Assembly (NCBI GenBank): GCA_963726085.1
Contig: CAVSAR010000011.1
Span: forward strand, 74,298 to 138,297
Direction of reading: 5' to 3'
DNA length: 64,000 bases
From: an uncultured Pseudomonadota bacterium
GTDB lineage: Bacteria; Pseudomonadota; Gammaproteobacteria; Steroidobacterales; Steroidobacteraceae
This document shows, piece by piece, positions 1 through 14,358 of the stretch. How positions within the stretch are numbered: the first letter of the stretch is position 1; each line of letters begins with the position of its first letter. Under the pieces are notes generated by a model that did not search any database, had not been told where the DNA came from, and worked only from the letters and a program-made list of their open reading frames with translations. A program made the translations under genes and the position numbers.

Positions 1-289
1 TCGGCCTCTCGCATACCTCGATCATCGCCGGCACTAGTGTGCGATTGCGATCAGCCAATGTGGCTTCGGCGCGTACCCAGCGTGAGACTACCGATTTCTT
101 CGACCACAATACGACCACCGCCTTTGCTTCGCGCAGCGCACCCTCTGTGACTTCATCATAGGCTTCACCCGATCGTAAAGCGGCATCCCACCAGACCGTA
201 AGGCCCTCCCGTTCAAAGGCCTCGGCAAACCGGCGCGCCACAGCTTGGTCTTCCCGGTTATAGGAAAGAAAGATTTCGGGCTGCGTCAT
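1..289 (-). CDS. TIR domain protein. Only the N-terminal ~96 codons are in the window; the gene continues beyond position 1.
   Basis: Reverse translation from the ATG at 289 gives MTQPEIFLSYNREDQAVARRFAEAFEREGLTVWWDAALRSGEAYDEVTEGALREAKAVVVLWSKKSVVSRWVRAEATLADRNRTLVPAMIE, a TIR_2-type domain with the same motifs as the three downstream paralogues. There is an ATGA start/stop overlap with the next gene (stop of 286..2076). Confidence 0.7.
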   Translation of the reverse strand, partial: MTQPEIFLSYNREDQAVARRFAEAFEREGLTVWWDAALRSGEAYDEVTEGALREAKAVVVLWSKKSVVSRWVRAEATLADRNRTLVPAMIEVCERP

Positions 290-2076
290 GTACCGCGACT
301 CTCGGCCGATTCAAGTTGGGTGCGCGCGGTCGTCAGCATGGTCACGAACCGCGGATAACTTCGCATGGAATCAAAGTCGTTGTCCTTGTCGACCCATGCC
401 AACCATCCCGAATTTACCTTGCTGAACACGCCTTCCAGCAGGTCGCAGGCGGCTTCGGCGTCGTTCATACGCGCCATACCACAGGAAAGATTATAGAGAA
501 GGCGAACATTGTCGGGATCAAAGAGTACAGCACGACGCGCCCACTCCCTCGCACGATCCACCTCGCCAAGTTGCGCCAAAGCAGGGACCATGAAGCCCAG
601 GGCTCCCCCGTGATCTGGCTCCACCTCTAGCAATTTCTCACAGTGAGACACAAGTATGCGCGCGGCGGCATCGGCTTTCTGTTTGTCCCCGAGCCCGGCA
701 TAAGCCTGGACAATCATCCCAGCGGGCCGATAGGCAACAGGATCCAGGGTCATTGCGATTTCAAAGTGGCGGATGGCGTCCGGGTATTTTTGTCCGGCGA
801 TATCCAGATATCCCGCACACAACTGCGCCTCAAAGGAATTTGGATTCATTCGCAGTGCCGTCTCTATATACGAATGGCCAGCCACCAGATCCATGCCGGC
901 GCCGCGGCCCCGTGCCTCCGCCAGTGCGGCATATCCCTCAGCCAGGTTGGGGTCGAGCGCAATCGCCTTTTCGGCCGCAAGGACCGCCCGATCCAGCGAG
1001 GAACCGCTCACACCCCGCTGGGCCATTTCGCTCTCCGCGAAAGACAGTTGCGCCCACGCCTGGGCGCAGCTGGCATCCAGCTCCACAATGCGATTGCAGA
1101 TTCTCGCGATCAATGGCTGCATGCGTTCGCTGCCGGTACGACTGAACTGCCGCGCCAGCAGGAACAGCTCGTAGGCCTCGGAACTGTTGGTGGTGCGTTG
1201 GGCGATAGCCTTCCGTTCGGCTGGCGCAAGCTTCACCTTCAGCGCGGCGACGATAGCCTGGGAAATCTCCTCCTGGATGGCAAAGATGTCGTCAAGCGTG
1301 CGATCGAACCGGTCGGCCCAGATCTGCGCGTCGGTGGTGACCTCCACCAGCTGCGCGGTAATGCGAACCCGCGACCCGCTCTTGCGAATGCTGCCTTCCA
1401 GGATGTGCGAGACGTGCTGTTCACGCCCGATCTGTGCCGCCGCGATTGTCCTGCCCTTTAACGAAAATGCTGCGTTTCGCGACACGACCGACAGCGCGGA
1501 CACACGCCCCAGGTCTGTAATGATGTCCTCCGTGACGCCGTCGCTGAAATACTCCTGCTCCGGGTCGCCACTCATGTTTACAAACGGCAACACCAATATC
1601 GCGGGACGCACTGATGCACCCTCGTACGGGGCCCTTGATGCCGGATGCGTAATGGCTGCCAGAGGCGACGGTGTAAGCACGGATCGCGCGGCAATGCGCC
1701 GCTTCACATCGGCAACCAGCCCCATCCAGACCCGGTCCTTAGGTGAACCATCCCAATGCATGAGTTCCGCGGATTGCGTCAGCTCGAACATGATGGGCCG
1801 GTCGCAGGTCTCGATCATCACCGGCACCAGTGTCTTGTTGCGATCCGCCAGCGTGGCTTCGGCCCGCACCCAGCGCGAGGCAACAGAGGTCTTTGACCAC
1901 AGCACCACTACGGCCTTGGCTTCACGCAGCGCCTTCTCGGTTACTTCGTCGTAGGCCTCGCCCGAGCGCAGGGTTTCGTCCCACCACACACCAACACCCT
2001 CGCGCTCGAAACCCTCGGCAAATCGTCGCGCGATGACCTGATCCTCACGGCTATATGAAAGAAAGACGTCCGTCAT
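286..2076 (-). CDS. TIR domain protein with a TolB-N/CadC-like sensor module and TPR-like repeats. No TM helix detected.
   Basis: I take the start as the internal Met of ORF 286..2226 (MTDVFLSYSREDQ..., cat at 2074-2076). TIR motifs are VWWDETL, VVVLWSKTSVASRWVRAEAT. They are followed by ILVLPFVNMSGDPEQEYFSDGVTEDII and a TPR-like Ala/Leu-rich C-terminal region. There is no hydrophobic segment between the TIR and sensor modules. Confidence 0.75.
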   Translation of the reverse strand: MTDVFLSYSREDQVIARRFAEGFEREGVGVWWDETLRSGEAYDEVTEKALREAKAVVVLWSKTSVASRWVRAEATLADRNKTLVPVMIETCDRPIMFELTQSAELMHWDGSPKDRVWMGLVADVKRRIAARSVLTPSPLAAITHPASRAPYEGASVRPAILVLPFVNMSGDPEQEYFSDGVTEDIITDLGRVSALSVVSRNAAFSLKGRTIAAAQIGREQHVSHILEGSIRKSGSRVRITAQLVEVTTDAQIWADRFDRTLDDIFAIQEEISQAIVAALKVKLAPAERKAIAQRTTNSSEAYELFLLARQFSRTGSERMQPLIARICNRIVELDASCAQAWAQLSFAESEMAQRGVSGSSLDRAVLAAEKAIALDPNLAEGYAALAEARGRGAGMDLVAGHSYIETALRMNPNSFEAQLCAGYLDIAGQKYPDAIRHFEIAMTLDPVAYRPAGMIVQAYAGLGDKQKADAAARILVSHCEKLLEVEPDHGGALGFMVPALAQLGEVDRAREWARRAVLFDPDNVRLLYNLSCGMARMNDAEAACDLLEGVFSKVNSGWLAWVDKDNDFDSMRSYPRFVTMLTTARTQLESAESRGT

Positions 2077-2095
2077 GACACTGCGCTTGCCCCGA

Positions 2096-4114
2096 TCATT
2101 TGCATTCGAAATCTTCCTTGCCAACTGGTCTGCAGAAGTCACCCCAGTTGCCGGCGGCGCGCCAGTAGGCGGCGACACCAATGTCTTGCAGTAGTTGCTT
2201 GAATCCAGGTTCACCACGTAAATCACGCATTACTGGCCGCCATAGTATGAAGCCCCAGATTTCGAAGCTGTAACCCTTGTGGCTCATGGCCTCGAACGTC
2301 TGCAAAGCAAGCTTGTGATCCCCAAGGTAGGTCGCCCACTGGGCAATACTGGACATGGTGTAGATATTGGCGGTATCCCGCGACTCATATTGCTGGTGCA
2401 GATTGCGCAGGGCCACAGCAGGCTCGTCCAGCAAGGGCTCGCCGGCGACGCTGGATACATCTGGCCCCGCTTCCCTAACTGCGACGAGCGCAGCCTTAAG
2501 CTTCGCTTCATTGCGGCTTGCCATGGCGCGCGTTACGGCAGTACCCAGCAGTGCGGGGGTGCGTCCACCGGGAAGCTGCAATAATTGGCGCATTTCTGCA
2601 TCGGCGCGCTCCACTTCCCCCGTGAGCTCGTATGCCATCAGCAAGTTGGTGCGCGCAAAGATGTCCAGCGGGTCATCCTTCTTCACTTTCTCAAGCACCG
2701 TGACGGCCTCTTTGGCCCGTCCCACGCCCTCCAGGAACTGGCCGTGGCGAAACCGTGCGCGCACCCCCAGCCCCCCGGTCAGTGCCAGGGCCTCATTCAG
2801 CAGCCGCTCCATGCCGATGAGATCGCCCTCGCGAGCCGCGCGATAGGACAAGGCGAAACTGGCCTCGGGGGATTTCGGCGACAGCGCCACAACCCGGTCG
2901 ATCGCCCCGTTGAGCTGGCGCTCGTATGGCGGGAGGGACTGCGGATCGTTGGGTGTAGCGCGGATGTACGCATCCACCAGCCACAGCCATGCCTGGACAT
3001 AGCCCGGATCGAGCGATACAGCGCGCTCCAGGTGCGGCGCCGCGGCGCGCATAGATGCCGTGTCGTTCGAATTGAGCAGCGCCCTGCCGGCAAGAAATTC
3101 GTCGTATGCCGCCACATTTTTCGTGCCGCCACCCCTGGGCGCGCCCATGCGCACCTGCAGTTCCTGGGCCACGGCTTTGGCGATCTCTTCCTGGATGGCA
3201 AAGATATCGTCAAGCGATCGCTCGTAGGTCTCGGACCAAACATGTGACCCGTCCGCAGTATTGATCAGCTGCGCCGTAATCTTGACCCGCTTGCCGGATT
3301 TGCGGACGCTTCCTTCCAGCAGGTGGTTGACGCCGAGCACTTCGCCGATATGCCGTAGGTCCTCGTTCTTTCCCTTGAACGCGAACGATGAAGTACGGCC
3401 AATCACGCGCAGGTCAGGTACCTGTGCCAGCTGGTTGAGCAGCTCCTCCGACAGGCCATCGGAAAAATACTCTTGTTCCGGGTCGGAGGACATGTTGACA
3501 AAGGGCAGGACGGCGATCGACGCCGGCACCGCGGCGGTCGAACTAGCGGGAGTGGACGACGCGACCAATGTACCTTTGGGCGCCAGATGCTGGCGCAGCA
3601 TCCATAGCCCGGCACCCGCAATCAGCAATACGCCGATGCCAATCGCCATCACCGCGCGATTGATCCGGCGCTTGCGATCCGCGGGGATTGCAGGCTGCGT
3701 CGAACGCCCCATTTCGGGATCGCCCTTTTGCACCAGTCGCCGTACGCTTGCCAGGTACGCCTGCCAGTCCTTGTCATTGGCGTCACCAGACCAGTTCGAA
3801 AGGTCCGCGGTCTGCTTTAGTTCGAACATGATCGGCCGTTTGCACGCCTCGATCATCGCTGGCACCAGCGTGCCGCTGCGATCTGCCTGGGTTGCCTCGG
3901 CCCGCACCCAACGCGACGCCACTGACTTCCTTGACCACAGGACGACCACAGCCCGGGCTTCTTCAAGGGCCTTTTCGGTTACTTCGTCATAGTCTTCGCC
4001 AGCATTGAGCGTCTGATCCCACCAGACCGTGAAACCCGCACGTTCAAAGCCCTCGGCAAAGCGTCGTGCAATCGCCTGATCGTCACGGCTATAGGAGAGA
4101 AAGATATCGGGCAT
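2096..4114 (-). CDS. TIR domain single-pass membrane protein: TIR, one TM helix, TolB-N/CadC-like module, TPR-like repeats.
   Basis: Start MPDIFLSYSRDDQ (cat 4112-4114; the annotated ORF begins 70 codons upstream without support). TIR motifs are present. The TM candidate is AVMAIGIGVLLIAGAGLWML. After it come IAVLPFVNMSSDPEQEYFSDGLSEELLNQL and TPR-like repeats. The C-terminus is NWGDFCRPVGKEDFECK. It lies 19 nt downstream of the stop of the previous paralogue. Confidence 0.75.
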   Translation of the reverse strand: MPDIFLSYSRDDQAIARRFAEGFERAGFTVWWDQTLNAGEDYDEVTEKALEEARAVVVLWSRKSVASRWVRAEATQADRSGTLVPAMIEACKRPIMFELKQTADLSNWSGDANDKDWQAYLASVRRLVQKGDPEMGRSTQPAIPADRKRRINRAVMAIGIGVLLIAGAGLWMLRQHLAPKGTLVASSTPASSTAAVPASIAVLPFVNMSSDPEQEYFSDGLSEELLNQLAQVPDLRVIGRTSSFAFKGKNEDLRHIGEVLGVNHLLEGSVRKSGKRVKITAQLINTADGSHVWSETYERSLDDIFAIQEEIAKAVAQELQVRMGAPRGGGTKNVAAYDEFLAGRALLNSNDTASMRAAAPHLERAVSLDPGYVQAWLWLVDAYIRATPNDPQSLPPYERQLNGAIDRVVALSPKSPEASFALSYRAAREGDLIGMERLLNEALALTGGLGVRARFRHGQFLEGVGRAKEAVTVLEKVKKDDPLDIFARTNLLMAYELTGEVERADAEMRQLLQLPGGRTPALLGTAVTRAMASRNEAKLKAALVAVREAGPDVSSVAGEPLLDEPAVALRNLHQQYESRDTANIYTMSSIAQWATYLGDHKLALQTFEAMSHKGYSFEIWGFILWRPVMRDLRGEPGFKQLLQDIGVAAYWRAAGNWGDFCRPVGKEDFECK

Positions 4115-4148
4115 TCTTGAGTCCCTGTTCGGCGGCCGCGCCGAGTGG

Positions 4149-5576
4149 CTAATCCTCGCCGTTTGCGTAGAGTTTGACCACTTCGTACAGGAACCTGCGA
4201 CCGTCCAGCAGCGATTTGACCCGGATGCGTTCATCCAGGCCATGGGCATGCGAACCTTCGGGGTCTGCAAACATGCCCGACAGTCCATAAGTCGGGATTC
4301 CGCCCGCGTCCAGGTACCTGCCATCGGTGGCGCCCACCGACATCGTGGGTATCAGGGGAACGCCTGGCCAGATCTTGGCAGCCACGGCCTGCGCCGGACC
4401 GAGGATGGCGCTTGTCATGCGGGGCGCCTGAGACTGCATGGCAGGTTCTCCGGTCGCGGCCACAGTAATCTTTTCATCGGCGAGCACGTCGCGGATTTCC
4501 CGCTGCACATCCGCGACCGAAACGCCTGGAAGGATGCGACAGTTGACGATAGCGCGTACATGCTGCGGCAGGGCATTGTCCGCATGGCCGCCTTCAATCT
4601 GGGTCACCACGCAGGTTGTGCGCAAGGCGGCGTTCCAGGCGGGGTTGACGGCCCAAAGCCTTTGCACGGCTGGCTCGTCCCGCGGATTGGCCAGCACGGC
4701 GCGCATGTCCTTGGCGATTTGCGGCGCGACCGACTTGCTCATCGCCTCGAAATAGGCGCGCGTGGTCGGATTGAAGGAGACAGTAAAGTCATGCGCGCCC
4801 ATGCGCACCAGCCCGGCACTGAGGCGCACGATCGGATTACTGTGCGTTGGCCGCGCGCTGTGCCCGCCGCCATCGGTTGCCTCCAATGCGAAATCCTGGA
4901 ATCCCTTCTCACCTGCCTGGATCTGCAAGGTAACTGGCCTCCCGTCCTTGTCGAGCTCGCCACCGGCGCCCTCATTGAGTGCGAAGGAGGCGCTGAGCAC
5001 CTGCGGCTGCGCCGCCACCAGCCATTTGACCGTATTGAAGATATCGGGCGTTTCTTCGCCGCAGGTCAGTGCCAACTTGATATCGCGTCGCGGCCTGAAT
5101 CCCTCCTTGCGATACCGAACCAGGTTATCCGTAAACACCGAGGCCATCGCCTTGTCGTCGGCTGCGCCGCGCGCATAGAAGTATCCGCCCTCCTCGACAA
5201 GCTTGAAGGGATCCCGTTGCCAGTCCTTGCGCTTTGCCTCAACCACATCAATATGCGCCAGCAGCAGGATCGGCTTGGCCTTCGGCTCGCGGCCACGCAG
5301 GACGGCAACCAGCGCGCCATCATTTGGGCGGTCTGGCGGTGCGAGGATCTGCATGTCGCCCGCGGGAATCCCCGCTGCCAGCAGGTGTGTGCGCATGGCT
5401 TCGGCCGCCTTCGTGCAGCTACCCACCGAACGCGTCGTGTTGAGTTCCACCAGCTCCTTGTAAAGCGCGCGAAATTCAACCTCCCCTGGGTCGGCCGCCT
5501 GTGACGTGGATGTGCCAGCCACGCTGGCTATCAGAATAGAGACTGCGCCGCGCGCTAGGGCCTTCTTCAGTGACAC
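4149..5576 (-). CDS. M20 family metallopeptidase (dipeptidase/carboxypeptidase-like), secreted.
   Basis: 475 aa with a signal peptide MSLKKALARGAVSILIASVAGTSTSQA and M20 hallmarks (LLLAHIDVV, GAADDK, CGEE). It is embedded between TIR paralogues. Its start overlaps the stop of 5567..7618 by 10 nt. Confidence 0.8.
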   Translation of the reverse strand: MSLKKALARGAVSILIASVAGTSTSQAADPGEVEFRALYKELVELNTTRSVGSCTKAAEAMRTHLLAAGIPAGDMQILAPPDRPNDGALVAVLRGREPKAKPILLLAHIDVVEAKRKDWQRDPFKLVEEGGYFYARGAADDKAMASVFTDNLVRYRKEGFRPRRDIKLALTCGEETPDIFNTVKWLVAAQPQVLSASFALNEGAGGELDKDGRPVTLQIQAGEKGFQDFALEATDGGGHSARPTHSNPIVRLSAGLVRMGAHDFTVSFNPTTRAYFEAMSKSVAPQIAKDMRAVLANPRDEPAVQRLWAVNPAWNAALRTTCVVTQIEGGHADNALPQHVRAIVNCRILPGVSVADVQREIRDVLADEKITVAATGEPAMQSQAPRMTSAILGPAQAVAAKIWPGVPLIPTMSVGATDGRYLDAGGIPTYGLSGMFADPEGSHAHGLDERIRVKSLLDGRRFLYEVVKLYANGED

Positions 5577-7618
5577 TCAAAGTCCTCCGCCCCAACGGGC
5601 TTGCAGTAGTCGCCCCAGTTCGAGGAAGCACGGAAATAGTCAGCCAGTCCGACATCCCGCACGAGATCCTTGAATCGCGCGTCGGAGCGAAGGTCGGACT
5701 TAAGCGGGAGCCAGAGCGCATTTGGCGAATGGAAATCGACCGACACGCGTCTCATGGCGATCAGTGCAAGGTCCTTGTCGTCGAACCTGTCGGCAAACAT
5801 CACGATGACGGACATGCGAACCCGATCCTGGTTCGCTGGATCATCAATGCCTTGCCTGATTGCAGCGCGGGCCTGCTCCCGATTTTCAAACTTCCCGGCC
5901 AGGTCGTGTGCAACCGGCATCGGTATCACCTCCTCGCTAAGCAATCTGTGGAACTGGGCCCTGATGGCCGCCGGCTCCGCATTCTTGCGCGCCAGGATTC
6001 GCATTAACGCGAAAATATTCGATTGCTGATGACTCCCGAGCAGCGTTTGGCTGCGCTCATACTCGGCTTGCGCCTCGCTGCTCCTGCCGACCATGTCCAG
6101 TTGCGCCTGCAGGGCACCGGATACATAGAGTGAGAGCGGATCCGCATCACGCGCCTGCTCCTCGAAGCGCACCAATTCCCTGTTCCTGCCCAGGGTCCCG
6201 AGAATGATGCCGTAGCTTTCACCCGCTTCGTTGCTACTGGATGGCAATGCACCGGCCTTCAAAGCACCGGCCATAGCCTCTTCGGCCTGCGCCCAGTTAT
6301 GCTGACCTACAAACTGGTTGACCCGCAAAATCTGTGCCCACCAGGCATTCGGAGCCAATGTCAAAACGCGCTCCGTCGCAGCGTTCGCCTCGCCGCGCAA
6401 AGCTGCGGACTCACTCTCCGGGACGCCGATCAGCGACTCGCGCAGTGCATAGCTTAGCAATAACCAGGCGCGCGAGAACTGCGGATCAAGCGCAACGCAT
6501 TCACGCAACTCCCGGACGGCATGCATGCCCGCCACCGGCCCGTTTTGGTGATAGATCTGGCGAGCGTGCAGATACTTATCATAGGCCTCCACATCCGTGG
6601 TTCCTCCCTGGACGCGAGGCAGATCCCCTACATCGAGCGTCACGCTCAATGCACGGGCTACATCCTTTGCGACTTCCTCCTGCACCGCGAAGACGCCGCT
6701 GAGTTCGCGATCGTAGGTTTGCGACCATAGGTGCCTGCCGTCCTTGGTACCGATCAGCTGCGTAGTAATTCGCAGATTCTTGCCGTCTTTGCGAACGCTA
6801 CCCTCGAGAATATTGTCCACATCCAGCGTCTTGCCGATCGCCCGAATGTCCTCGCCCTTTCCCTTGAACAGAAAGCTGGAGGTACGCGCGGTGACGCGTA
6901 GCGCCTTGATGTGCGCCAGCTGATTCAGGAGTTCCTCCGTCATACCATCCGAGAAGTAGTCCTGATCGTGCGCTGGTGACATATCGGCAAACGGGAGCAC
7001 CGCAAGCGTGATGTTGGTTTCCGGTTTTACCGCTGGGCTGCCTGCGAGTGCTTGCGTGGCGCCGGCAGCGGAAAATCCGGCAACCCCCTTGGGGCTGTAG
7101 TGGAACCAGATCAGGGCGGCGCCGGCAAGCACCAGCAGTGCCACGGGAATCGCGATCTTGAGCCCCATGCCCGCCCTAGGTCCCGCCATCGCCGTCCCCT
7201 TCGTCGGCGTGGTGGCAACCGGTTCACCTTTGTTCATGTGCCGGCGCAAATCGCCGACGAACGCGAGCCACGACCTGTCGTCCGGATCTCCTTTCCAGTG
7301 CGTCAGCTCCGCCGTGTGTTTGAGCTCGAACATGATCGGCCGGTCGCAGGATTCGATCATTGCCGGCACCAGCGTGCCGCTGCGATCCGCAGTGGTCGCT
7401 TCCGCCCGCACCCAGCGCGATTCAACGGACTTCTTTGACCAGAGCACGACCACTGCCTTGGCTTCGCGCAGGGCGCGCTCTGTCACCTGGTCGTAGTTCT
7501 CGCCCGAGCGCAGTGTTTGGTCCCACCAGACAGTGAATCCTTCGCGCTCGAATCCCTCGGCGAAGCGGCGCGCGGTCACCTGATCGTCCCGGCTATAAGA
7601 AAGGAAAATGTCGGTCAT
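5567..7618 (-). CDS. TIR domain single-pass membrane protein: TIR, one TM helix, TolB-N/CadC-like module, TPR-like repeats.
   Basis: 683 aa: MTDIFLSYSRDDQVTARRFAEGFEREGFTVWWDQTL...VVVLWSKKSVESRWVRAEAT. TM helix IAIPVALLVLAGAALIWF, then LAVLPFADMSPAHDQDYFSDGMTEELLNQL. The C-terminus NWGDYCKPVGAEDFECH parallels that of 2096..4114. Confidence 0.8.
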   Translation of the reverse strand: MTDIFLSYSRDDQVTARRFAEGFEREGFTVWWDQTLRSGENYDQVTERALREAKAVVVLWSKKSVESRWVRAEATTADRSGTLVPAMIESCDRPIMFELKHTAELTHWKGDPDDRSWLAFVGDLRRHMNKGEPVATTPTKGTAMAGPRAGMGLKIAIPVALLVLAGAALIWFHYSPKGVAGFSAAGATQALAGSPAVKPETNITLAVLPFADMSPAHDQDYFSDGMTEELLNQLAHIKALRVTARTSSFLFKGKGEDIRAIGKTLDVDNILEGSVRKDGKNLRITTQLIGTKDGRHLWSQTYDRELSGVFAVQEEVAKDVARALSVTLDVGDLPRVQGGTTDVEAYDKYLHARQIYHQNGPVAGMHAVRELRECVALDPQFSRAWLLLSYALRESLIGVPESESAALRGEANAATERVLTLAPNAWWAQILRVNQFVGQHNWAQAEEAMAGALKAGALPSSSNEAGESYGIILGTLGRNRELVRFEEQARDADPLSLYVSGALQAQLDMVGRSSEAQAEYERSQTLLGSHQQSNIFALMRILARKNAEPAAIRAQFHRLLSEEVIPMPVAHDLAGKFENREQARAAIRQGIDDPANQDRVRMSVIVMFADRFDDKDLALIAMRRVSVDFHSPNALWLPLKSDLRSDARFKDLVRDVGLADYFRASSNWGDYCKPVGAEDFECH

Positions 7619-7806
7619 TCACGGTTCCTGATGTGCTCGCCGGCAATTGGGTCAGGCCTCGCCAAGTGTAAGCGCTCCGCATCTGCACCGCCCGCCTCAA
7701 CTGGCGTATTGCCAAGAACACACGGGAGTTTGTCGGATCTCACCATGTGGGTGAGAAAACCAGGATGCGGAGCGGGTGGTAGCCGGGCTGACCCGACGCC
7801 CGCGGA

Positions 7807-8829
7807 CTAGGGCTTGCGCGCCATGACTAGCGAGTAATAGCCCCCGCCCGTACGCCAAGCCTCAATGTCGGCAAATCCGGCAGCCTCCAGAAACCCGCGC
7901 AGCTCTGGCAGGGTGTACTGCCTGCCCTTGGTACCCAGCAGCATCATCATCGAGAACGCGGCCGGCGCCAGTGGCCCACAGCCGTCATCGTCAATCAGCA
8001 TTTCGTGCAGCAGGATGCGCCCGCCGGCAGGCAGCGCCTCAAAGGACTTGCGCGCCAAAATGCGGCAGGTGGCGTCCGACCAGTCGTGAAAGATATTTGA
8101 GAAGAAGTGCGCGTCATGTCCGCGCGGCCAGTTCTCGGTGAACATGTTGACCGCTTGCGTTGATACCTGCGCCTGGACGCCAGCCGCCGCAATGTACTGG
8201 TCGGCTTCCACGCAGACCTGCGTGATCTCCATCACCGTGGCCCGCAGCTCGGGCCACGCTTTTGCCAGCCGGATCGGGAATATGCCCGATCCACCGCCCA
8301 CGTCCAGCAGCGACCGCACCTCGGAAAACAGCGGTTGCGCGGCAACACCCCGCGCAGCCGCCTGGCTGTGCGCATTCATGAAGGCCGTGATGAAATTGGC
8401 GAACTCCGGCGTCATCGCGCCACGTTCCCATTCATCCACGGAAGACAGTCCTCCCTGCGGGCGGCTGCCGGTGCGAAGTGTCGCAAGCATCTGCTTGTGC
8501 AGGAGCTCACGCTCGCGAAAGATGCCCAGCATGGGACCGTAATAGCCCTCTGCCTGCGGATGCATCCACATGCGGCTGGCGGCGGTCGCTCGCCAGCGGC
8601 CTTCGCGTCGCTCCACGAAACCCAGTGCCGCCAGAAGCCCCAGGTGAATCAGCAGCGCGCGCGCATCCACCTTGAGTTCGGTGGCCAATTCCGCGGTGGT
8701 CAGGGACCGCGATGAGATCGCCGTAAAAGTACCGACCTCATCAGCCACCGTGAGGACCGGCATCCGGTACTGCGACAGCCAGGTATCCCAGATGATCTTG
8801 TCGTCGCTGGTCGCGGGCAGTGCACTCAC
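7807..8829 (-). CDS. Class I SAM-dependent O-methyltransferase (family 2 OMT-like).
   Basis: 340 aa with an N-terminal dimerisation-like region and the SAM motif LLDVGGGSG. It lies 11 nt downstream of the MFS transporter gene. Confidence 0.75.
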   Translation of the reverse strand: MSALPATSDDKIIWDTWLSQYRMPVLTVADEVGTFTAISSRSLTTAELATELKVDARALLIHLGLLAALGFVERREGRWRATAASRMWMHPQAEGYYGPMLGIFRERELLHKQMLATLRTGSRPQGGLSSVDEWERGAMTPEFANFITAFMNAHSQAAARGVAAQPLFSEVRSLLDVGGGSGIFPIRLAKAWPELRATVMEITQVCVEADQYIAAAGVQAQVSTQAVNMFTENWPRGHDAHFFSNIFHDWSDATCRILARKSFEALPAGGRILLHEMLIDDDGCGPLAPAAFSMMMLLGTKGRQYTLPELRGFLEAAGFADIEAWRTGGGYYSLVMARKP

Positions 8830-8840
8830 TGTGATTTCCG

Positions 8841-10088
8841 TCAGGCCGTGCGCAGCTTGCGCGGTGCGGTTTCCTTGAGGAACAGCGCAACGATGAAGCC
8901 GAGCACCAGGCCACAGGCCGCGAAATACAGCGCGCCTTTCAGTCCATATTCGCCACCCGCGATCCTGCCAGCGATGATCGGGCTGATGCCGCCGCCGACG
9001 AATTCACCGGCGAAGATCACGAAGCCGGCCATGGAGGCCAGCATGCCGGGAGGCGCGGCTTCTGCGGCGACCGGACCTGCCAGGATCGCCAGTGCCGCAA
9101 AATTGAACATCGAGGCAAAGAACAGCAGGATCCACAGGACGGTCGTATCGTGTGGACCAGCCTGCGTAAAGAAGTACAGGAACGCCGCGGCCAGGATGTA
9201 GGAAGCCAGCGTGGACAGCTTGCGGCCGATGATGTCGGACAGCGCGGGCATCGCAAACTGGCCGATGCAGCCGCCAATACCCACCGCCGAGAACACGTTG
9301 CCGGCGGTCACCGGATCGAGCCCCAGGCCTGCACCAACTGGCGCGGTCAGGTAGGCCGTGAGCATCGCGGCGATCACGAAGATGCCACCCATGGCGCAGA
9401 TCAGCGTGAGCGGTGCGACCTTGGCGTTGCGATGCGCGAACATGCTGAGGAATGGCGCACCACCACTGCCGTGCCCCGTATCGGCACGCTTCAGCGGTTC
9501 CCGCACGACGAACCACATGATGATGGCCACGATCACGCCGGGCGCGCCGACGATCATGAACACGGAGTGCCAGCTGTGGCTGTTCAGCAGCCGCGTGGCA
9601 ATCAGTGGCGCCAGCGCCAGGCCGAACAGGGAAATCATGCACTGGAAGATGCCGTTGTTCATGCCGCGACGCGATGGCTTGGAGGCCTCCACCGCAACCG
9701 CGACCCCGGTCGAGGCCACCGGACCTTCGGCGACACCCATGATCACTCGGACCAGGACCAGGGCCGTGACGGAGCCGGCCAGGCCGCTGAATGCCGACAT
9801 CAGGGAGAACACCAGGATGGCAGGCACCAGCACCGCGCGGCGGCCGACTCTGTCCGCCAGATAACCCATTACGAACGCCGAGATTCCCCAGGCCATTCCC
9901 AGGTATCCCGCCAGTGTTCCTCCGTCCTGGGGAGTCAGGCCGAGATCCTTGCCCATCGTGGAGTTGGGCGACTGCAGGATGATCGGAAGCACGAACCTGT
10001 CGAGGCCCACCAGACCGAAGGTGATGCTCAGCAGCAGGATGATTTTCCACTCGTAACTGGTATCCCAGTTCTTTTCTTGTTGTGCCAC
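8841..10088 (-). CDS. MFS transporter.
   Basis: 415 aa, about 12 hydrophobic helices. Motifs GLDRFVLPIIL and ADRVGRRAVL are typical of MFS. Confidence 0.85.
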   Translation of the reverse strand: MAQQEKNWDTSYEWKIILLLSITFGLVGLDRFVLPIILQSPNSTMGKDLGLTPQDGGTLAGYLGMAWGISAFVMGYLADRVGRRAVLVPAILVFSLMSAFSGLAGSVTALVLVRVIMGVAEGPVASTGVAVAVEASKPSRRGMNNGIFQCMISLFGLALAPLIATRLLNSHSWHSVFMIVGAPGVIVAIIMWFVVREPLKRADTGHGSGGAPFLSMFAHRNAKVAPLTLICAMGGIFVIAAMLTAYLTAPVGAGLGLDPVTAGNVFSAVGIGGCIGQFAMPALSDIIGRKLSTLASYILAAAFLYFFTQAGPHDTTVLWILLFFASMFNFAALAILAGPVAAEAAPPGMLASMAGFVIFAGEFVGGGISPIIAGRIAGGEYGLKGALYFAACGLVLGFIVALFLKETAPRKLRTA

Positions 10089-10522
10089 GGCGCTCCCCCT
10101 TGATTGGATTTTATGGTGCGATTCGAGCCGGAACTATATCACTCCATTCAGCGCCAGACTTCGCCGGGGGTGTCTGTCATACCAGCCCGAAGTCTCGCGC
10201 AGCAGGTCCTAGCGCGACGCCCCCAGGTGCCCCGACTCGAAGACCACGTACCGCTAGCTATAGGGCGACCATCCAAGCAGTTCGCACAGGCGTTTGGAAC
10301 CTGAGTAGCGAATCGGCAGGTAAGAGCCGGAGCACGTCCCGCGCGCGCTAGCGCGCCCGGAAGATCGCCGGCATCGACAAGCGCAGCACGCTTCGTAACC
10401 TGCCGACGCGGCCCCTCTGCACATGGCCTGCGAATCCGCCCCGTTAGGCGGCGGTGCTCACTCTTCCCAGCCGGTGGGCGAGTTGTACGGTGTCGTGACG
10501 CCGATGCTTCGATCTCGTGGAT

Positions 10523-10882
10523 CTAGCCGCCCCATACCTTGAAGATGTGCTCTGCCGGCATGTCGAAGGCGCGCTGGTTGGTCATATCGGCCTCCTCGCG
10601 GTCAGGATTGCCAGTGATCTTGAACTTCTTCTGCGTCAGGTGCCGGAAATGCGAGAAGCCGATGGCCAGCCCGGTCACCGTGTCGGCAATCTCCACGCGG
10701 CGATCGTCGATGGTGGTGATGTACTGGAAGGCACCGGAGTCGATCTGCGAAGTGCAATCCTGCAATCCCTCCAGACCAGGCGGGCGCGGCGCGCCCCCCG
10801 GGATAGTGCCGCCCAGTGCGGTGGCGGTGGCCGCGGCCAGCAGGGCCGCGGCCATCCACACGCCTGATCTTCTTATTTTCAT
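10523..10882 (-). CDS. Hypothetical secreted protein.
   Basis: Start at the internal Met MKIRRSGVWMAAALLAAATATALG (cat 10880-10882), which gives a signal peptide. I recognise no family. Confidence 0.4.
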   Translation of the reverse strand: MKIRRSGVWMAAALLAAATATALGGTIPGGAPRPPGLEGLQDCTSQIDSGAFQYITTIDDRRVEIADTVTGLAIGFSHFRHLTQKKFKITGNPDREEADMTNQRAFDMPAEHIFKVWGG

Positions 10883-10904
10883 GCTTCCCCCCAAAAACTG
10901 ACTG

Positions 10905-11961
10905 TCAGAAGATCCCGGTCGGCGCTTCCATGGTGACGTCGCGCGCCTGGTCCGACATGCCCTGCTCCCAGGTGCTCCAGCCGGAGTTCATGCCGTAGGG
11001 GGCGCGCTGCAGGACTGCCTGGATCTTGCGGATCTTGCCCTTCTCGATCTTGAACAGCTCGGCGATCTGCCAGGTCCACGGCTGCACCGGGCCGGCAACG
11101 ACCTCGCGCCCATCGGGTGTCTTGAAGTGGCGGGTGTCGCCGCCGTAGTGATCAAAGAAGCCGAACGCGAACACGATGCCGCGCTCCTGGTCTATGGCCA
11201 CGAAGCGCCGGTCGCGGATGCGATTGACGAAGTGCAGCAGGCCGGACTTGAACTGCTCCATGCAACTCCACTGCGCGGAATAGTCGGTGGAAGTCAGCGG
11301 ATCGGGCTGCGTCTGCCCGGCGGGCGTCGGCACGTTGGTGGTCTGGTTGCCGTTCTCAAGGCGATTGCAGTCATCGCGCGAACGGATAATCGCCCTTGCC
11401 GTCGTTCTTCTGCATGCCGGTGAAATACTTGTTGCGCCGTGGCGATCAGCTCGGCGCGCGACATGCGCTCCGCCGGCGGCACCGCCTGCAGGTAGATCGG
11501 ATCGGTACCCAGTTCTTGGCCGTCCATAGGTCCAGCGCCGGCCGCTCGTCGCGCACCACCAGCTGCTCGATTTCGGTGATCTGGCCGTCCGGCACGCGCA
11601 GCCGCAGCGCGATCAGTGAGCCGTTGCCCTTGGCCGGATCACGGTTGTCCTCCTCGATGGTGCCGAAGAAGGCCACCTGGCCGGCCGGCACGTCAGTGAC
11701 GAACAGGCGGTACTTGCCCTTGCCCTGCATGGTGCTCCACAGGCCATCGCCGATGAGCAGGCGCTGACCGTCTTCGGTGAACCTCACGTTGGGCGACAGC
11801 GGCACCATGGACGGCTGGTTCGCAGCAACGGCGTCCAGGTAACGGTCGACGAAGCCTTCCAGGCACGCGCGGTCGCAGGCCGACTGGGCGGCGTGCACGG
11901 AAGACGTGCCCGCGATAGCAATAATTGCCGCGACAACCAAAGTAGTTGGTGCAAAGCGCAT
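10905..11961 (-). pseudogene. Hypothetical secreted protein interrupted by two frameshifts (possible sequencing errors).
   Basis: Three co-linear minus-strand ORFs in different frames (11446..11961 with signal peptide MRFAPTTLVVAAIIAIAGTSSVHA, 11294..11527, 10905..11333) tile one about 350 aa reading frame. Confidence 0.45.
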
Positions 11962-13088: not shown

Positions 13089-13403
13089 TCAGCTGCGTGT
13101 TGCCCATGCCGCCACGCCGATGCTCGCCAGCGCCATCAGCGCGGTGGCCAGCAACGGAAAATGCGAACTGCGCATTGCCACGCCCTGCAAGGCCGTAAAC
13201 GCCTGTGACATAGACGTAGCCACCAAGGGCGCTAGTGCCGCAGTTGCCAACAACACGCCCACGCCGATGGCGACCGAGGCCATGCGGGCATTTCGTCGCT
13301 GCCGCTCAACCCCCGCAATGACGGCCATGACCAGCGCGGGGTCCGCAGCGGGCGGCGCCTCCTGTGCGAACAATCGCTGCAACAGCTCGTTTGATTCGAT
13401 CAT
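13089..13403 (-). CDS. Anti-sigma factor (small membrane protein) paired with the ECF sigma factor.
   Basis: Start MIESNELLQRLFAQEAPP (cat 13401-13403) forms an ATGA overlap with the stop of the sigma factor gene. It has a C-terminal hydrophobic segment. Confidence 0.5.
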   Translation of the reverse strand: MIESNELLQRLFAQEAPPAADPALVMAVIAGVERQRRNARMASVAIGVGVLLATAALAPLVATSMSQAFTALQGVAMRSSHFPLLATALMALASIGVAAWATRS

Positions 13404-13957
13404 GGTGCCTCCAGCACGCCCGGATCCAGCCAAGCGCGCAGCCTGGCCGACCCCCTTGTCACGTGTGACTTTACAGTGCCCAGTGGCCAACCGGTATGCG
13501 TGGCGATCTCGCCATGACTCATTCCCTCAGCATGACAGAGCACCACGCAGATCCGCTCCTCGGCTCGCAGGCGCGCCAGGGCCCGCTCCAGGTCCAGCAC
13601 CAGGCCGGCATCCGGTGCACTGACAGGAACATCCATTCCCGCGTCCGGATCCAGCCACTCCGAGCGGCGTCGCATCTGCTGCAAGGCGCAGTTCAGGGCC
13701 AGCCGCCTCAACCAGGGCCCGAACGCCGCGAATTCGCGCAAGGTGCCCAACTGCATCCATGCCTGTAAGAAAGCCTGCTGCGACAGGTCATCCGCCAGTG
13801 CCGCATTGGCGCACACGCGGCGCAGAAACTGGCGCAGGCGCGGCTCGCGACGCCGCACCAGTTCCTCGAAGGCTTGCACTTCGCCGCCTGCCGCCAGTGC
13901 CACGAGCGTGGCCTCCGCCACGTTCGCAAGCGCCTTGCGGCGCGCCAGCAGATTCAC
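13400..13957 (-). CDS. RNA polymerase ECF-type sigma-70 family sigma factor.
   Basis: 185 aa with region 2 (DLSQQAFLQAW) and region 4 (MSHGEIATHTGWPLGTVKSHVTRG) motifs. Confidence 0.8.
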   Translation of the reverse strand: MNLLARRKALANVAEATLVALAAGGEVQAFEELVRRREPRLRQFLRRVCANAALADDLSQQAFLQAWMQLGTLREFAAFGPWLRRLALNCALQQMRRRSEWLDPDAGMDVPVSAPDAGLVLDLERALARLRAEERICVVLCHAEGMSHGEIATHTGWPLGTVKSHVTRGSARLRAWLDPGVLEAP

Positions 13958-14358
13958 ACGCCTGAGCCGTAGCTGCTACTGCCCATATGCCGCGGGCGCA
14001 GGTAAGCATTAAAGAACAAACCCAGACCTATGGTGGCCACCAGGCAGGCAGCACCCATGATCGGCCAGAAGGAATCTACCGCGATCTGGCGTATGAACAG
14101 GCTGAATACACCCAGACCGACACCCGTGGAGGTGATGCCAACCGGCCACGTAAAGGGATTGGCGGGGGCCCGGGGGCATGGCGGAGCAAGCAACTTTTCC
14201 ACCAGTGCGGCATCGAGGGTCTGGCCGCGTTCGATTGCCAGGCGAATGGTCTGCTGGCGTTCGCGCTCGACCATCAGGCGTCGCCACATGGTCACGGCGA
14301 CGATGCCAAACACTGCCAGGAAGAAGAACATCGGGCCCAAGACGTCTGCACCCATCAC
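13954..14358 (-). CDS. Small integral membrane protein (DUF), first gene of the ECF sigma operon.
   Basis: 134 aa with several hydrophobic helices. Its stop overlaps the sigma factor start (ATGA). Confidence 0.4.
   Translation of the reverse strand: MMGADVLGPMFFFLAVFGIVAVTMWRRLMVERERQQTIRLAIERGQTLDAALVEKLLAPPCPRAPANPFTWPVGITSTGVGLGVFSLFIRQIAVDSFWPIMGAACLVATIGLGLFFNAYLRPRHMGSSSYGSGV

What the first reader, a model, noticed from the sequence alone, without database searches (positions are those of the whole stretch)
4149..5576. A secreted M20 metallopeptidase gene is embedded inside the TIR receptor array
The only non-TIR gene in the array encodes a signal-peptide-bearing M20 dipeptidase/carboxypeptidase. 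It is translationally coupled to the upstream TIR gene by a 10-nt overlap. A periplasmic peptidase co-transcribed with receptors whose sensor domains are predicted periplasmic could generate or destroy the ligand, for example a peptide or peptidoglycan fragment. This is speculative. It gives a testable functional link.
Basis: inference. Interest (0 to 1): 0.55.

Follow-up and report, generated by a model that had tools for sequence, protein, structure and literature searches.

The report
Exported M20 peptidase inside TIR array
A normal-looking exported M20 metallopeptidase gene does sit inside a tightly packed row of TIR sensor genes, but the pairing occurs in only one narrow bacterial lineage, so a working partnership between them is possible and unproven.

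Summary
Window 4149-5576 (minus strand) encodes a 475-aa M20 peptidase of the uncharacterised NCBIfam subfamily NF006596/PRK09133. It has a Sec-type signal peptide and an intact metal and catalytic site. Its GTG start follows a GGAGGA ribosome-binding site by 6 nt and overlaps the stop of the upstream TIR gene by 10 nt. It is the only non-TIR gene among TIR_A, TIR_B, TIR_C and the cut TIR_D.

The TIR-to-M20 junction recurs in all six related metagenome contigs whose M20 is 74-98% identical, even though the TIR paralogs and flanking genes around it differ. These M20s form one clade under purifying selection (dN/dS about 0.13).

Outside that clade the link is absent. None of 45 loci with M20 homologs at 42-74% identity has a TIR gene within up to 10 kb. 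None of 80 metagenome loci carrying the same TIR family, several of them tandem arrays, has an M20 gene.

Neither partner therefore needs the other in general. The most likely reading is a vertically inherited periplasmic exopeptidase that became enclosed in, and co-expressed with, a recombining TIR-sensor array in one lineage. Ligand processing remains an untested minority possibility. One paralog, TIR_C, has no membrane helix, so not all the "receptors" are periplasmic sensors.

The parts
4149..5576 (-). M20 metallopeptidase gene (475 aa, GTG start, TAG stop), subfamily NF006596/PRK09133
   Evidence: ORF. Pfam PF01546 and PF07687. NCBIfam NF006596 at 632 bits against a cut-off of 349. H108, D140, E174, E175, E202 and H445 are conserved in 104-110 of 110 homologs. 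Foldseek probability 1.0 to solved M20 structures.
5496..5576 (-). Signal-peptide coding part (residues 1-27, predicted cleavage SQA|AD)
   Evidence: Sequence inspection, hydrophobicity, equivalent N-termini in homologs and pLDDT below 50 for residues 1-27. No signal-peptide predictor was run.
5567..5576 (-). 10-nt overlap GTGTCACTGA between the TIR_A stop (TGA 5569-5567) and the M20 start (GTG 5576-5574)
   Evidence: The same geometry occurs with ATG or GTG in L126, L002, L045 and L127/L128.
5583..5588 (-). Shine-Dalgarno-like GGAGGA, 6 nt upstream of the M20 start, inside the TIR_A coding sequence
   Evidence: GGAGGA or AAGGA occupies the same place in L126, L045, L127 and L002.
5567..7618 (-). 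TIR_A (683 aa): N-terminal TIR_2 domain, one membrane helix, CadC/TolB-like plus helical-repeat region, C-terminal WGDYCKPVGAEDFECH
   Evidence: Pfam TIR_2 at E 3.4e-21. Weak NF007540 CadC match over residues 217-454. Membrane helix near residue 152.
4115..4148 (-). 34-nt spacer between the M20 stop and the TIR_B start, with no terminator-like site
2096..4114 (-). TIR_B (672 aa), same architecture as TIR_A, ends in DFECK
286..2076 (-). TIR_C (596 aa): TIR_2 plus TPR repeats, with no membrane helix and no C-terminal cysteine motif, so predicted cytoplasmic
   Evidence: TPR_END_plus domain; Kyte-Doolittle maximum 0.86; alignment.
1..289 (-). TIR_D: the start of a fourth TIR gene (ATG 289-287, forming an ATGA overlap with the TIR_C stop), cut by the window edge

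Best explanation
The gene encodes a catalytically competent, Sec-exported M20 exopeptidase or amidohydrolase of the widespread, uncharacterised PRK09133 subfamily. Soil Gammaproteobacteria related to Steroidobacteraceae and Rhodanobacteraceae normally carry this gene on its own, in variable contexts.

In one lineage this resident gene came to lie inside a tandem, recombining array of TIR-membrane-sensor paralogs. Its start codon now sits inside the conserved Glu-Cys codons of the upstream TIR gene's C-terminal DFEC[HKR] tail. It is therefore most likely translated from the array's polycistronic mRNA by coupling to that TIR gene.

Its biochemical job is probably the general one of its orthologs, trimming peptides or N-acyl amino acids in the periplasm. 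The link to the TIR genes is then one of shared expression and shared descent, not an obligatory mechanistic partnership.

What is shown: gene identity, active-site conservation, the overlap and ribosome-binding site, single-clade distribution and purifying selection. What is inferred: export, co-transcription, substrate class and the absence of a dedicated functional tie.
For: - Family and intact site.
- Signal peptides are present across both TIR-linked and TIR-free homologs.
- TIR-free homologs are abundant. 7,998 proteins reach E <= 1e-20, and none of 45 loci at 42-74% identity has a TIR gene in the flanks fetched, up to 10 kb each side.
- Those loci share no recurrent neighbour. The largest neighbour cluster occurs in 6 loci.
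- None of 80 loci of the same TIR family contains an M20 gene, tandem arrays included. What follows TIR genes there is heterogeneous: PEP mutase, AsmA, a DUF4231 protein.
- In a neighbour-joining tree the TIR-linked M20s form one clade, sister to the TIR-free ones. This fits a single origin followed by vertical descent.
- dN/dS is 0.12-0.14.
- The array is tightly packed: overlap of 10 nt, then gaps of 34 and 19 nt, then an overlap of 4 nt. No promoter-like or terminator-like site lies at the junctions around M20. The only promoter-like hit in 11 kb is at 2124-2095, just upstream of TIR_C.
Against: - The TIR-to-M20 junction has survived synonymous divergence up to saturation (dS 0.9-1.3).
- It has also survived several rearrangements. 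Different TIR paralogs lie upstream: A-type in the window, L126, L127 and L044; another type in L045; B-like in L002.
- Flanking genes differ as well: MFS and O-methyltransferase, MFS alone, or an HTH gene downstream.
- L044 shows a deletion footprint at the junction.
- Such persistence is what selection for linkage would produce.
- All of these contigs were found through the M20 gene, so loss events would have gone unseen.
Confidence: 0.55

Rival explanations
1. Dedicated functional module. The exported M20 enzyme produces, trims or destroys a periplasmic peptide-like ligand that the CadC/TolB-like sensor domains of TIR_A and TIR_B detect. The peptidase and the receptors would then form one signalling unit.
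For: - The 10-nt start/stop overlap and ribosome-binding site are conserved in 5 of 6 related contigs.
- Linkage is retained across array rearrangements and saturated synonymous divergence.
- Both proteins are predicted to face the periplasm.
- The M20 is under purifying selection with an intact active site.
Against: - The link is confined to one clade.
- None of 80 other loci of this TIR family carries an M20 gene.
- None of 45 M20 homolog loci outside the clade carries a TIR gene.
- Most of the roughly 7,600 TIR homologs in the database evidently work without an adjacent M20.
- The upstream TIR paralog is not constant.
- TIR_C in the same array is cytoplasmic.
- The substrate is unknown.
Confidence: 0.25
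2. The M20 acts on the receptors themselves. As a periplasmic carboxypeptidase it would trim the conserved C-terminal tail (...CxPVGxxDFEC[HKR]) of the membrane-anchored TIR proteins, maturing or tuning them.
For: - The tail is conserved in 110 of 120 family members and ends in a variable basic, His or other residue after the last Cys.
- The M20 start codon lies within this very tail's codons.
- Many M20 enzymes are carboxypeptidases. This point comes from general knowledge of the family, not from a test made here.
Against: - The same tail is present in thousands of TIR proteins with no M20 nearby.
- There is no direct evidence for this reading.
- The position of the start codon is explained simply by the GA(G/A)-TG(T/C) codons offering an ATG or GTG.
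Confidence: 0.05
3. Adjacency without shared expression. The M20 would be transcribed from an internal promoter within the 3' end of TIR_A, and the overlap would be an incidental result of compact gene packing.
For: - The promoter scan covers only sigma-70 consensus sites and is insensitive in 62% G+C DNA.
- ECF sigma factor genes lie nearby, for example 13400-13957.
Against: - No promoter-like site was found in TIR_A's 3' end.
- The overlap and ribosome-binding-site geometry are conserved.
- Only 34 nt, with no terminator, separate M20 from TIR_B.
Confidence: 0.1

Closest known systems
NCBIfam NF006596 (PRK09133) M20 subfamily, listed there as 'hypothetical protein', within Pfam Peptidase_M20 (PF01546) plus M20_dimer (PF07687)
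   Same: Full-length match at 632 bits against a cut-off of 349. The protein has both M20 domains, invariant metal and catalytic residues, and a signal peptide like its homologs.
   Different: Nothing structural or catalytic differs. Only the genomic setting inside a TIR array is unusual, and it is restricted to one clade.
Characterised M20 enzymes: DapE, ArgE, carboxypeptidase G2, carnosinase CN2, PepV, Sso-CP2
   Same: Two-domain M20 fold (Foldseek probability 1.0, TM-score 0.55-0.65). The HxD, D, EE, E and H motifs are shared.
   Different: Identity is only 12-20%. Scores fall far below the DapE and ArgE equivalog cut-offs, for example 72 against 284 and 71.5 against 297.7. DapE, ArgE, PepV and the carnosinase CN2 are cytosolic by general knowledge, not tested here, whereas this protein carries an export signal. 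Substrate specificity cannot be transferred.
CadC/ToxR-type single-pass receptors (the neighbouring TIR proteins, not the M20)
   Same: The topology matches: a cytoplasmic output domain, one membrane helix and a periplasmic sensor. The sensor region gives weak matches to the periplasmic part of CadC (NF007540, E 1e-6 to 2.5e-8, model positions about 218-451). Conserved periplasmic cysteines are present.
   Different: The output domain is TIR_2 and not a winged-helix DNA-binding domain. Scores (27-33 bits) are far below the 400-bit cut-off. No peptidase partner is known for CadC; this point comes from general knowledge.
Thoeris and other TIR-based anti-phage systems
   Same: The TIR domain keeps the W-x-x-x-E glutamate motif typical of NAD+-cleaving TIR domains. 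Weak ThsB and ThcB4 matches appear.
   Different: All matches fall below their cut-offs. The window has no ThsA-type effector, and the architecture is a membrane sensor. The papers checked on bacterial TIR systems describe no M20 partner.

Membership tests
Peptidase family M20 (Pfam PF01546 / PF07687) | Catalytic-domain and dimerisation/lid-domain profile matches above the gathering score | tested here: met
   PF01546 at 91.7 bits (cut-off 24.6) and PF07687 at 51.7 bits (cut-off 21).
Peptidase family M20 (Pfam PF01546 / PF07687) | Co-catalytic metal ligands and general base (His, bridging Asp, Glu-Glu, Glu, His; counterparts of carboxypeptidase G2 H112, D141, E175, E176, E200, H385, numbering recalled from memory) | tested here: met
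   H108, D140, E174, E175 and H445 are invariant in 110 of 110 aligned homologs. E202 is present in 104 of 110. All are present in all 14 TIR-linked clade members. The assignment to roles rests on motif position, not on a structure with bound metal.
Peptidase family M20 (Pfam PF01546 / PF07687) | Two-domain M20 fold | tested here: met
   AlphaFold2 model with mean pLDDT 76.4. Foldseek probability 1.0 to 2pok, DapE, CN2, Sso-CP2 and CPG2.
NCBIfam NF006596 (PRK09133) subfamily | Whole-protein score above the curated cut-off | tested here: met
   632.2 bits against 349, covering residues 17-472.
DapE / ArgE (succinyl-diaminopimelate desuccinylase / acetylornithine deacetylase) | Score above the equivalog cut-offs | tested here: not met
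   72 against 284 bits (NF009557), 71.5 against 297.7 (TIGR01892) and 58 against 361.8 (TIGR01246). The JGI name 'acetylornithine deacetylase/...-like' is only a COG-level label.
Sec-exported (periplasmic or secreted) protein | N-terminal signal peptide with n-, h- and c-regions and a small-x-small cleavage site | tested here: inconclusive
   The pattern is present by inspection and hydrophobicity, and it is conserved in homologs. No SignalP-type predictor and no experiment were available.
Operon member translationally coupled to the upstream gene | Start codon overlapping or abutting the upstream stop, with a ribosome-binding site inside the upstream gene | tested here: met
   10-nt overlap, with GGAGGA 6 nt upstream. 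Conserved in L126, L002, L045 and L127/L128.
Operon member translationally coupled to the upstream gene | A single transcript spanning the genes | not testable with these tools
   Only a consensus scan was possible. It found no promoter-like or terminator-like site at the junctions.
Conserved TIR-M20 gene module | Co-occurrence of the two genes across independent lineages | tested here: not met
   One monophyletic clade only. None of 45 outside M20 loci has a TIR gene. None of 80 TIR-family loci has an M20 gene.
Conserved TIR-M20 gene module | Retention of the pair within the lineage that has it | tested here: met
   6 of 6 related contigs, representing five distinct M20 sequences, keep the pair, with M20 at 74-98% identity. 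This sample was ascertained through the M20. Three A-type TIR orthologs found independently were uninformative. Two are followed by another TIR gene before the contig ends, and for the third no DNA could be read.
Thoeris-type TIR defence system (for the neighbours) | ThsB-class TIR scoring above the model cut-off, plus a ThsA-type effector gene | tested here: not met
   ThsB_TIR at 17.7-19.4 bits against 21.2. ThcB4 at 23-32 bits against 220. PADLOC gives only weak partial TIR hits. No effector gene lies in the array.

The most novel reading that the evidence does not exclude
In this lineage the exported M20 enzyme has been recruited as a dedicated accessory of bacterial Toll-like-receptor-style sensors (periplasmic sensor, membrane helix, cytoplasmic TIR domain with the NADase glutamate). 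It would generate or clear the peptide-like cue they detect, or trim their conserved cysteine-bearing C-terminal tails. That would be the first case of an extracytoplasmic ligand-processing enzyme wired to bacterial TIR signalling.
Probability: 0.2. Interest if true: 0.7.

Novelty: new member of a known kind. Interest (0 to 1): 0.3.

Why it matters
The peptidase alone is an ordinary member of a large, uncharacterised M20 subfamily.

What could matter is the company it keeps. The neighbouring genes belong to a very large and apparently unstudied family of membrane-anchored bacterial TIR proteins, with more than 7,600 homologs at E <= 1e-30. Their topology mirrors animal Toll-like receptors.

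If the enclosed peptidase were shown to shape their input, it would give a first experimental handle on what these sensors detect. The comparative evidence here says the handle is weak. The pairing is a peculiarity of one lineage, so experiments on the TIR sensors should not assume the peptidase belongs to the system.

Tried and rejected
- **Profile scan with partial sequences.** An alignment-based metagenome scan using full-length plus partial TIR sequences failed because no conserved stretch was found. It was repeated with TIR-domain-only sequences.
- **Synteny between the window and TIR-free M20 loci.** None was found. Only L002 shares the TraB-DUF8021-MFS flank, so the ancestral context could not be reconstructed.
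- **Conserved partner of TIR-free M20 orthologs.** No recurrent neighbour exists; the largest cluster covers 6 loci. Many of the 'ORFs' in that census, and, are spurious frames in high-G+C DNA and were ignored.
- **DapE/ArgE identity.** Rejected, because scores lie far below the cut-offs.
- **Anti-phage defence assignment.** PADLOC gives no hit for the M20 and only weak partial TIR hits for its neighbours.
- **Substrate inference from sequence or fold.** PDB relatives are generic M20 enzymes at 20% identity or less, so no specificity can be inferred.
- **Literature.** No paper describes TIR plus TolB-like/TPR membrane proteins together with an M20 partner.
- **Unbiased test through A-type TIR orthologs.** The contigs were too short or had no DNA available.
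- **Genome of origin.** The window's own genome was not among the genome-contig hits. The organism is inferred only from the names on best hits, which point to Steroidobacteraceae-like Gammaproteobacteria.

Full report
**What is in the sequence.** The first 10 kb of the window reads as one tightly packed row of genes on the minus strand:
- an MFS transporter at 8841-10088;
- an O-methyltransferase at 7807-8829;
- a 188-nt gap;
- TIR_A at 5567-7618;
- the gene in question at 4149-5576;
- TIR_B at 2096-4114;
- TIR_C at 286-2076;
- the start of a fourth TIR gene, TIR_D, at 289, which runs off the window.

The spacing is compact. TIR_A and M20 overlap by 10 nt. M20 and TIR_B are 34 nt apart. TIR_B and TIR_C are 19 nt apart. 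TIR_C and TIR_D share an ATGA overlap. A consensus scan of 1-11000 found no promoter-like or terminator-like site at the junctions around the M20 gene. The only promoter-like match, at 2124-2095, lies just ahead of TIR_C. That scan is weak evidence in 62% G+C DNA.

**The gene itself.** The 475-aa product matches Pfam Peptidase_M20 and M20_dimer. It matches NCBIfam NF006596/PRK09133 over its full length at 632 bits against a cut-off of 349. NCBI labels that subfamily only 'hypothetical protein'. Scores for the DapE and ArgE equivalogs fall far below their cut-offs, so it is neither enzyme.

The M20 metal and catalytic positions H108, D140, E174, E175, E202 and H445 are conserved in 104-110 of 110 aligned homologs, and in all members of the TIR-linked clade. 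An AlphaFold2 model (mean pLDDT 76) matches solved M20 structures with Foldseek probability 1.0, but at only 12-20% identity. A sequence search of the PDB gives only partial, weak matches. The family assignment is therefore firm and the substrate is unknown.

The N-terminus MSLKKALARGAVSILIASVAGTSTSQA|AD looks like a Sec signal peptide. Equivalent peptides are present throughout the family, whether or not a TIR gene is adjacent.

**The start codon and overlap.** The GTG at 5576-5574 follows GGAGGA (5588-5583) by 6 nt and lies 10 nt before the end of TIR_A. The next in-frame start would remove the signal peptide. Relatives settle the question: L002, L045 and L127/L128 have ATG at exactly this position, L126 has GTG, and all have the same 10-nt overlap.

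The start codon is formed by the Glu-Cys codons (GA[G/A]-TG[T/C]) of the TIR protein's conserved C-terminal motif ...DFEC[HKR]. One correction applies: TIR_C has no membrane helix and no C-terminal cysteine motif, so not every TIR protein in the array can have a periplasmic sensor.

**Is the pairing conserved? Starting from the M20 gene.**
- The M20 has thousands of homologs: 7,998 at E <= 1e-20, with more than 100 at 69-83% identity.
- Every homolog of 74% identity or more whose context could be read has a TIR gene immediately upstream:
  - L126 (98%): MFS, O-methyltransferase, TIR, M20, TIR, TIR.
  - L044 (82%): TIR, M20, TIR.
  - L002 (79%): TraB, DUF8021, MFS, TIR, M20, TIR.
  - L045 (76%): TIR, TIR, M20, then an HTH gene on the other strand.
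  - L127/L128 (74%): TIR, M20, TIR, then an HTH gene.
- L001, L129 and L130 (73%) lack TIR genes. Their context is GST, then M20, MFS, rubrerythrin.
- None of 41 loci from reference genomes and MAGs, at 42-74% identity, has a TIR domain in the flanks fetched, up to 10 kb on each side. These come from Steroidobacteraceae, Rudaea, Lysobacter, Caulobacter, Acidobacteriota and others.
- Those TIR-free loci share no recurrent neighbour.
- In a neighbour-joining tree the TIR-linked M20s form a single clade, sister to the large TIR-free clade. No bootstrap support was computed.

**Is the pairing conserved? Starting from the TIR genes.**
- A profile of the TIR domain retrieved more than 444 metagenome matches. 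The best 80 loci (60-78% identity) were examined.
- About a dozen of them hold two TIR genes in tandem. None contains an M20 homolog.
- The genes that do follow TIR genes there are varied: a PEP mutase, an AsmA protein, two related proteins of which one (L099) gives a weak DUF4231 match, and others.
- A search with full-length TIR_A found 7,638 homologs at E <= 1e-30, mostly of the same architecture.
- Three A-type orthologs found in this M20-independent way could not settle the matter. In L131 and L132 the A-type gene is followed by another TIR gene and the contig then ends. For the third, no DNA could be read.

**What the clade-internal comparison adds.** The array is unstable around a stable junction.
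- The TIR gene directly upstream of M20 is A-type in the window, L126, L127 and L044. It is a different paralog in L045 and a B-like one in L002.
- L044 carries a 20-codon remnant of a TIR gene start (MADVFLSYSRDDQPAARRFA) fused in frame to the M20 signal peptide. This is the footprint of a deletion that removed a TIR gene like the one present in L045.
- Synonymous divergence of the M20 among these contigs reaches 0.9-1.3, with dN/dS of 0.12-0.14. The gene is functional and the adjacency is old.
- Divergence is mosaic. Against L126, TIR_A-M20 has dS of about 0.05 while the O-methyltransferase has 0.45. Against L002, the MFS gene has 0.49 while M20 has 1.14. This points to recombination across the region.

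**Interpretation.** Two facts pull in opposite directions.
- The junction's persistence through rearrangement and long divergence is what one expects if linkage is useful.
- The strict restriction to one clade, with abundant TIR-free orthologs and abundant M20-free TIR arrays, shows that neither protein needs the other.

I therefore favour, at about 0.55, the reading that a vertically inherited periplasmic M20 exopeptidase became enclosed in an expanding TIR-sensor array in one lineage and is co-expressed with it. The shared expression would be the main consequence.

A variant in which the enzyme trims the receptors' conserved C-terminal tails is at about 0.05. Independent transcription despite the overlap is at about 0.1.

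All six supporting contigs were found through the M20 gene, so losses within the clade would not have been seen. This ascertainment bias limits the weight of the 6 of 6 count.

**Comparison with known systems.**
- The gene is a member of Peptidase_M20 and of NF006596. Every defining feature that could be tested was met.
- It is not DapE or ArgE.
- The neighbouring TIR proteins resemble CadC/ToxR-type single-pass receptors in topology. Their sensor region matches CadC's periplasmic part weakly, well below the cut-off.
- Their TIR domains keep the W-x-x-x-E glutamate motif. They do not meet Thoeris or PADLOC model thresholds, and no effector gene accompanies them in the window.
- No paper found links such proteins with an M20 enzyme.

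**Verdict.** The functional interpretation is partly supported: coupling and conservation within the clade hold, while the mechanism is untested and the pairing is not general. The peptidase is a new member of a known kind. Overall interest is modest at 0.3. The more remarkable object is the surrounding family of membrane-anchored TIR sensors, not the peptidase.

Noticed in passing
L044:1802-1870: In this relative the M20 ORF begins with a 20-codon remnant of a TIR gene start (MADVFLSYSRDDQPAARRFA) fused in frame to the M20 signal peptide. The TGATG junction typical of TIR-to-TIR boundaries is kept. This is the footprint of a deletion that removed a whole TIR gene, such as the one still present between the A-type TIR and M20 in L045.
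   Followed up: partly
window 286-2076 (-): TIR_C has no membrane helix (Kyte-Doolittle maximum 0.86, against 2.3 in TIR_A and TIR_B) and lacks the C-terminal CxPVGxxDFEC motif. It ends instead in a 'TPR end-of-group' domain (NF047558). It is a predicted cytoplasmic paralog inside an array of membrane sensors.
   Followed up: partly
window 5567-7618 and 2096-4114 (-); homologs P0128-P0246: The TIR-membrane-sensor family is very large, with 7,638 proteins at E <= 1e-30. Of the top 120 hits, 105 have a membrane helix, 115 keep the W-x-x-x-E glutamate motif of NAD+-cleaving TIR domains, and 110 end in a two-cysteine tail WGDxCxPVGxxDFEC[HKR]. The sensor region weakly matches the periplasmic part of CadC. 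No literature on the family was found.
   Followed up: partly
L080:3186-3971 and L099:2553-4559: In two metagenome loci the TIR-sensor gene is followed directly by related proteins with an N-terminal GVTGHR motif. The longer one (L099, 668 aa) gives a weak DUF4231 match (E 8e-4, below cut-off) with membrane-like segments. From memory, DUF4231 belongs to the SLATT effector group. It could be a TIR-signal effector in those loci. The window has no counterpart.
   Followed up: no
window 4149-10088 compared with L126 and L002: Synonymous divergence is mosaic. Against L126, TIR_A and M20 have dS 0.05-0.10, while MFS has 0.19 and the O-methyltransferase 0.45. Against L002, MFS has dS 0.49 while M20 has 1.14. 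In the M20 tree L002 groups with L045 and not with the window. This suggests recombination or allelic replacement of the array between related strains.
   Followed up: partly
L126:6771-8757: The ortholog of TIR_B (91-94% identical) is split into two overlapping ORFs of 463 and 209 aa. This is either a frameshift pseudogene or an assembly error.
   Followed up: no
window 7807-8829 (-): An O-methyltransferase gene (PF00891; JGI calls a relative 'acetylserotonin N-methyltransferase') lies between the MFS gene and TIR_A in the window and in L126. It is absent from the otherwise syntenic L002, where MFS is followed directly by a TIR gene.
   Followed up: no
L131:840-1378: A MazE-like / PemK toxin-antitoxin pair lies immediately upstream of an A-type TIR ortholog (74% identical in the sensor region). 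It occupies the place where the window has MFS and the O-methyltransferase.
   Followed up: no
L072:10022-10855: A PEP-mutase family gene follows a TIR-sensor gene, and the mechanical ORF call again gives a 10-nt GTG overlap inside the E-C codons of the TIR tail. Here an ATG three codons later is the more likely start. The conserved TIR tail thus tends to create apparent overlapping starts, so each such overlap needs support from homologs, as was obtained for the M20.
   Followed up: partly
window 13400-14358 (-): An ECF-type sigma-70 family gene (regions 2 and 4) and a DUF6249 gene lie about 6 kb upstream of the TIR array, on the same strand. They could be relevant to regulation of the region.
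   Followed up: no
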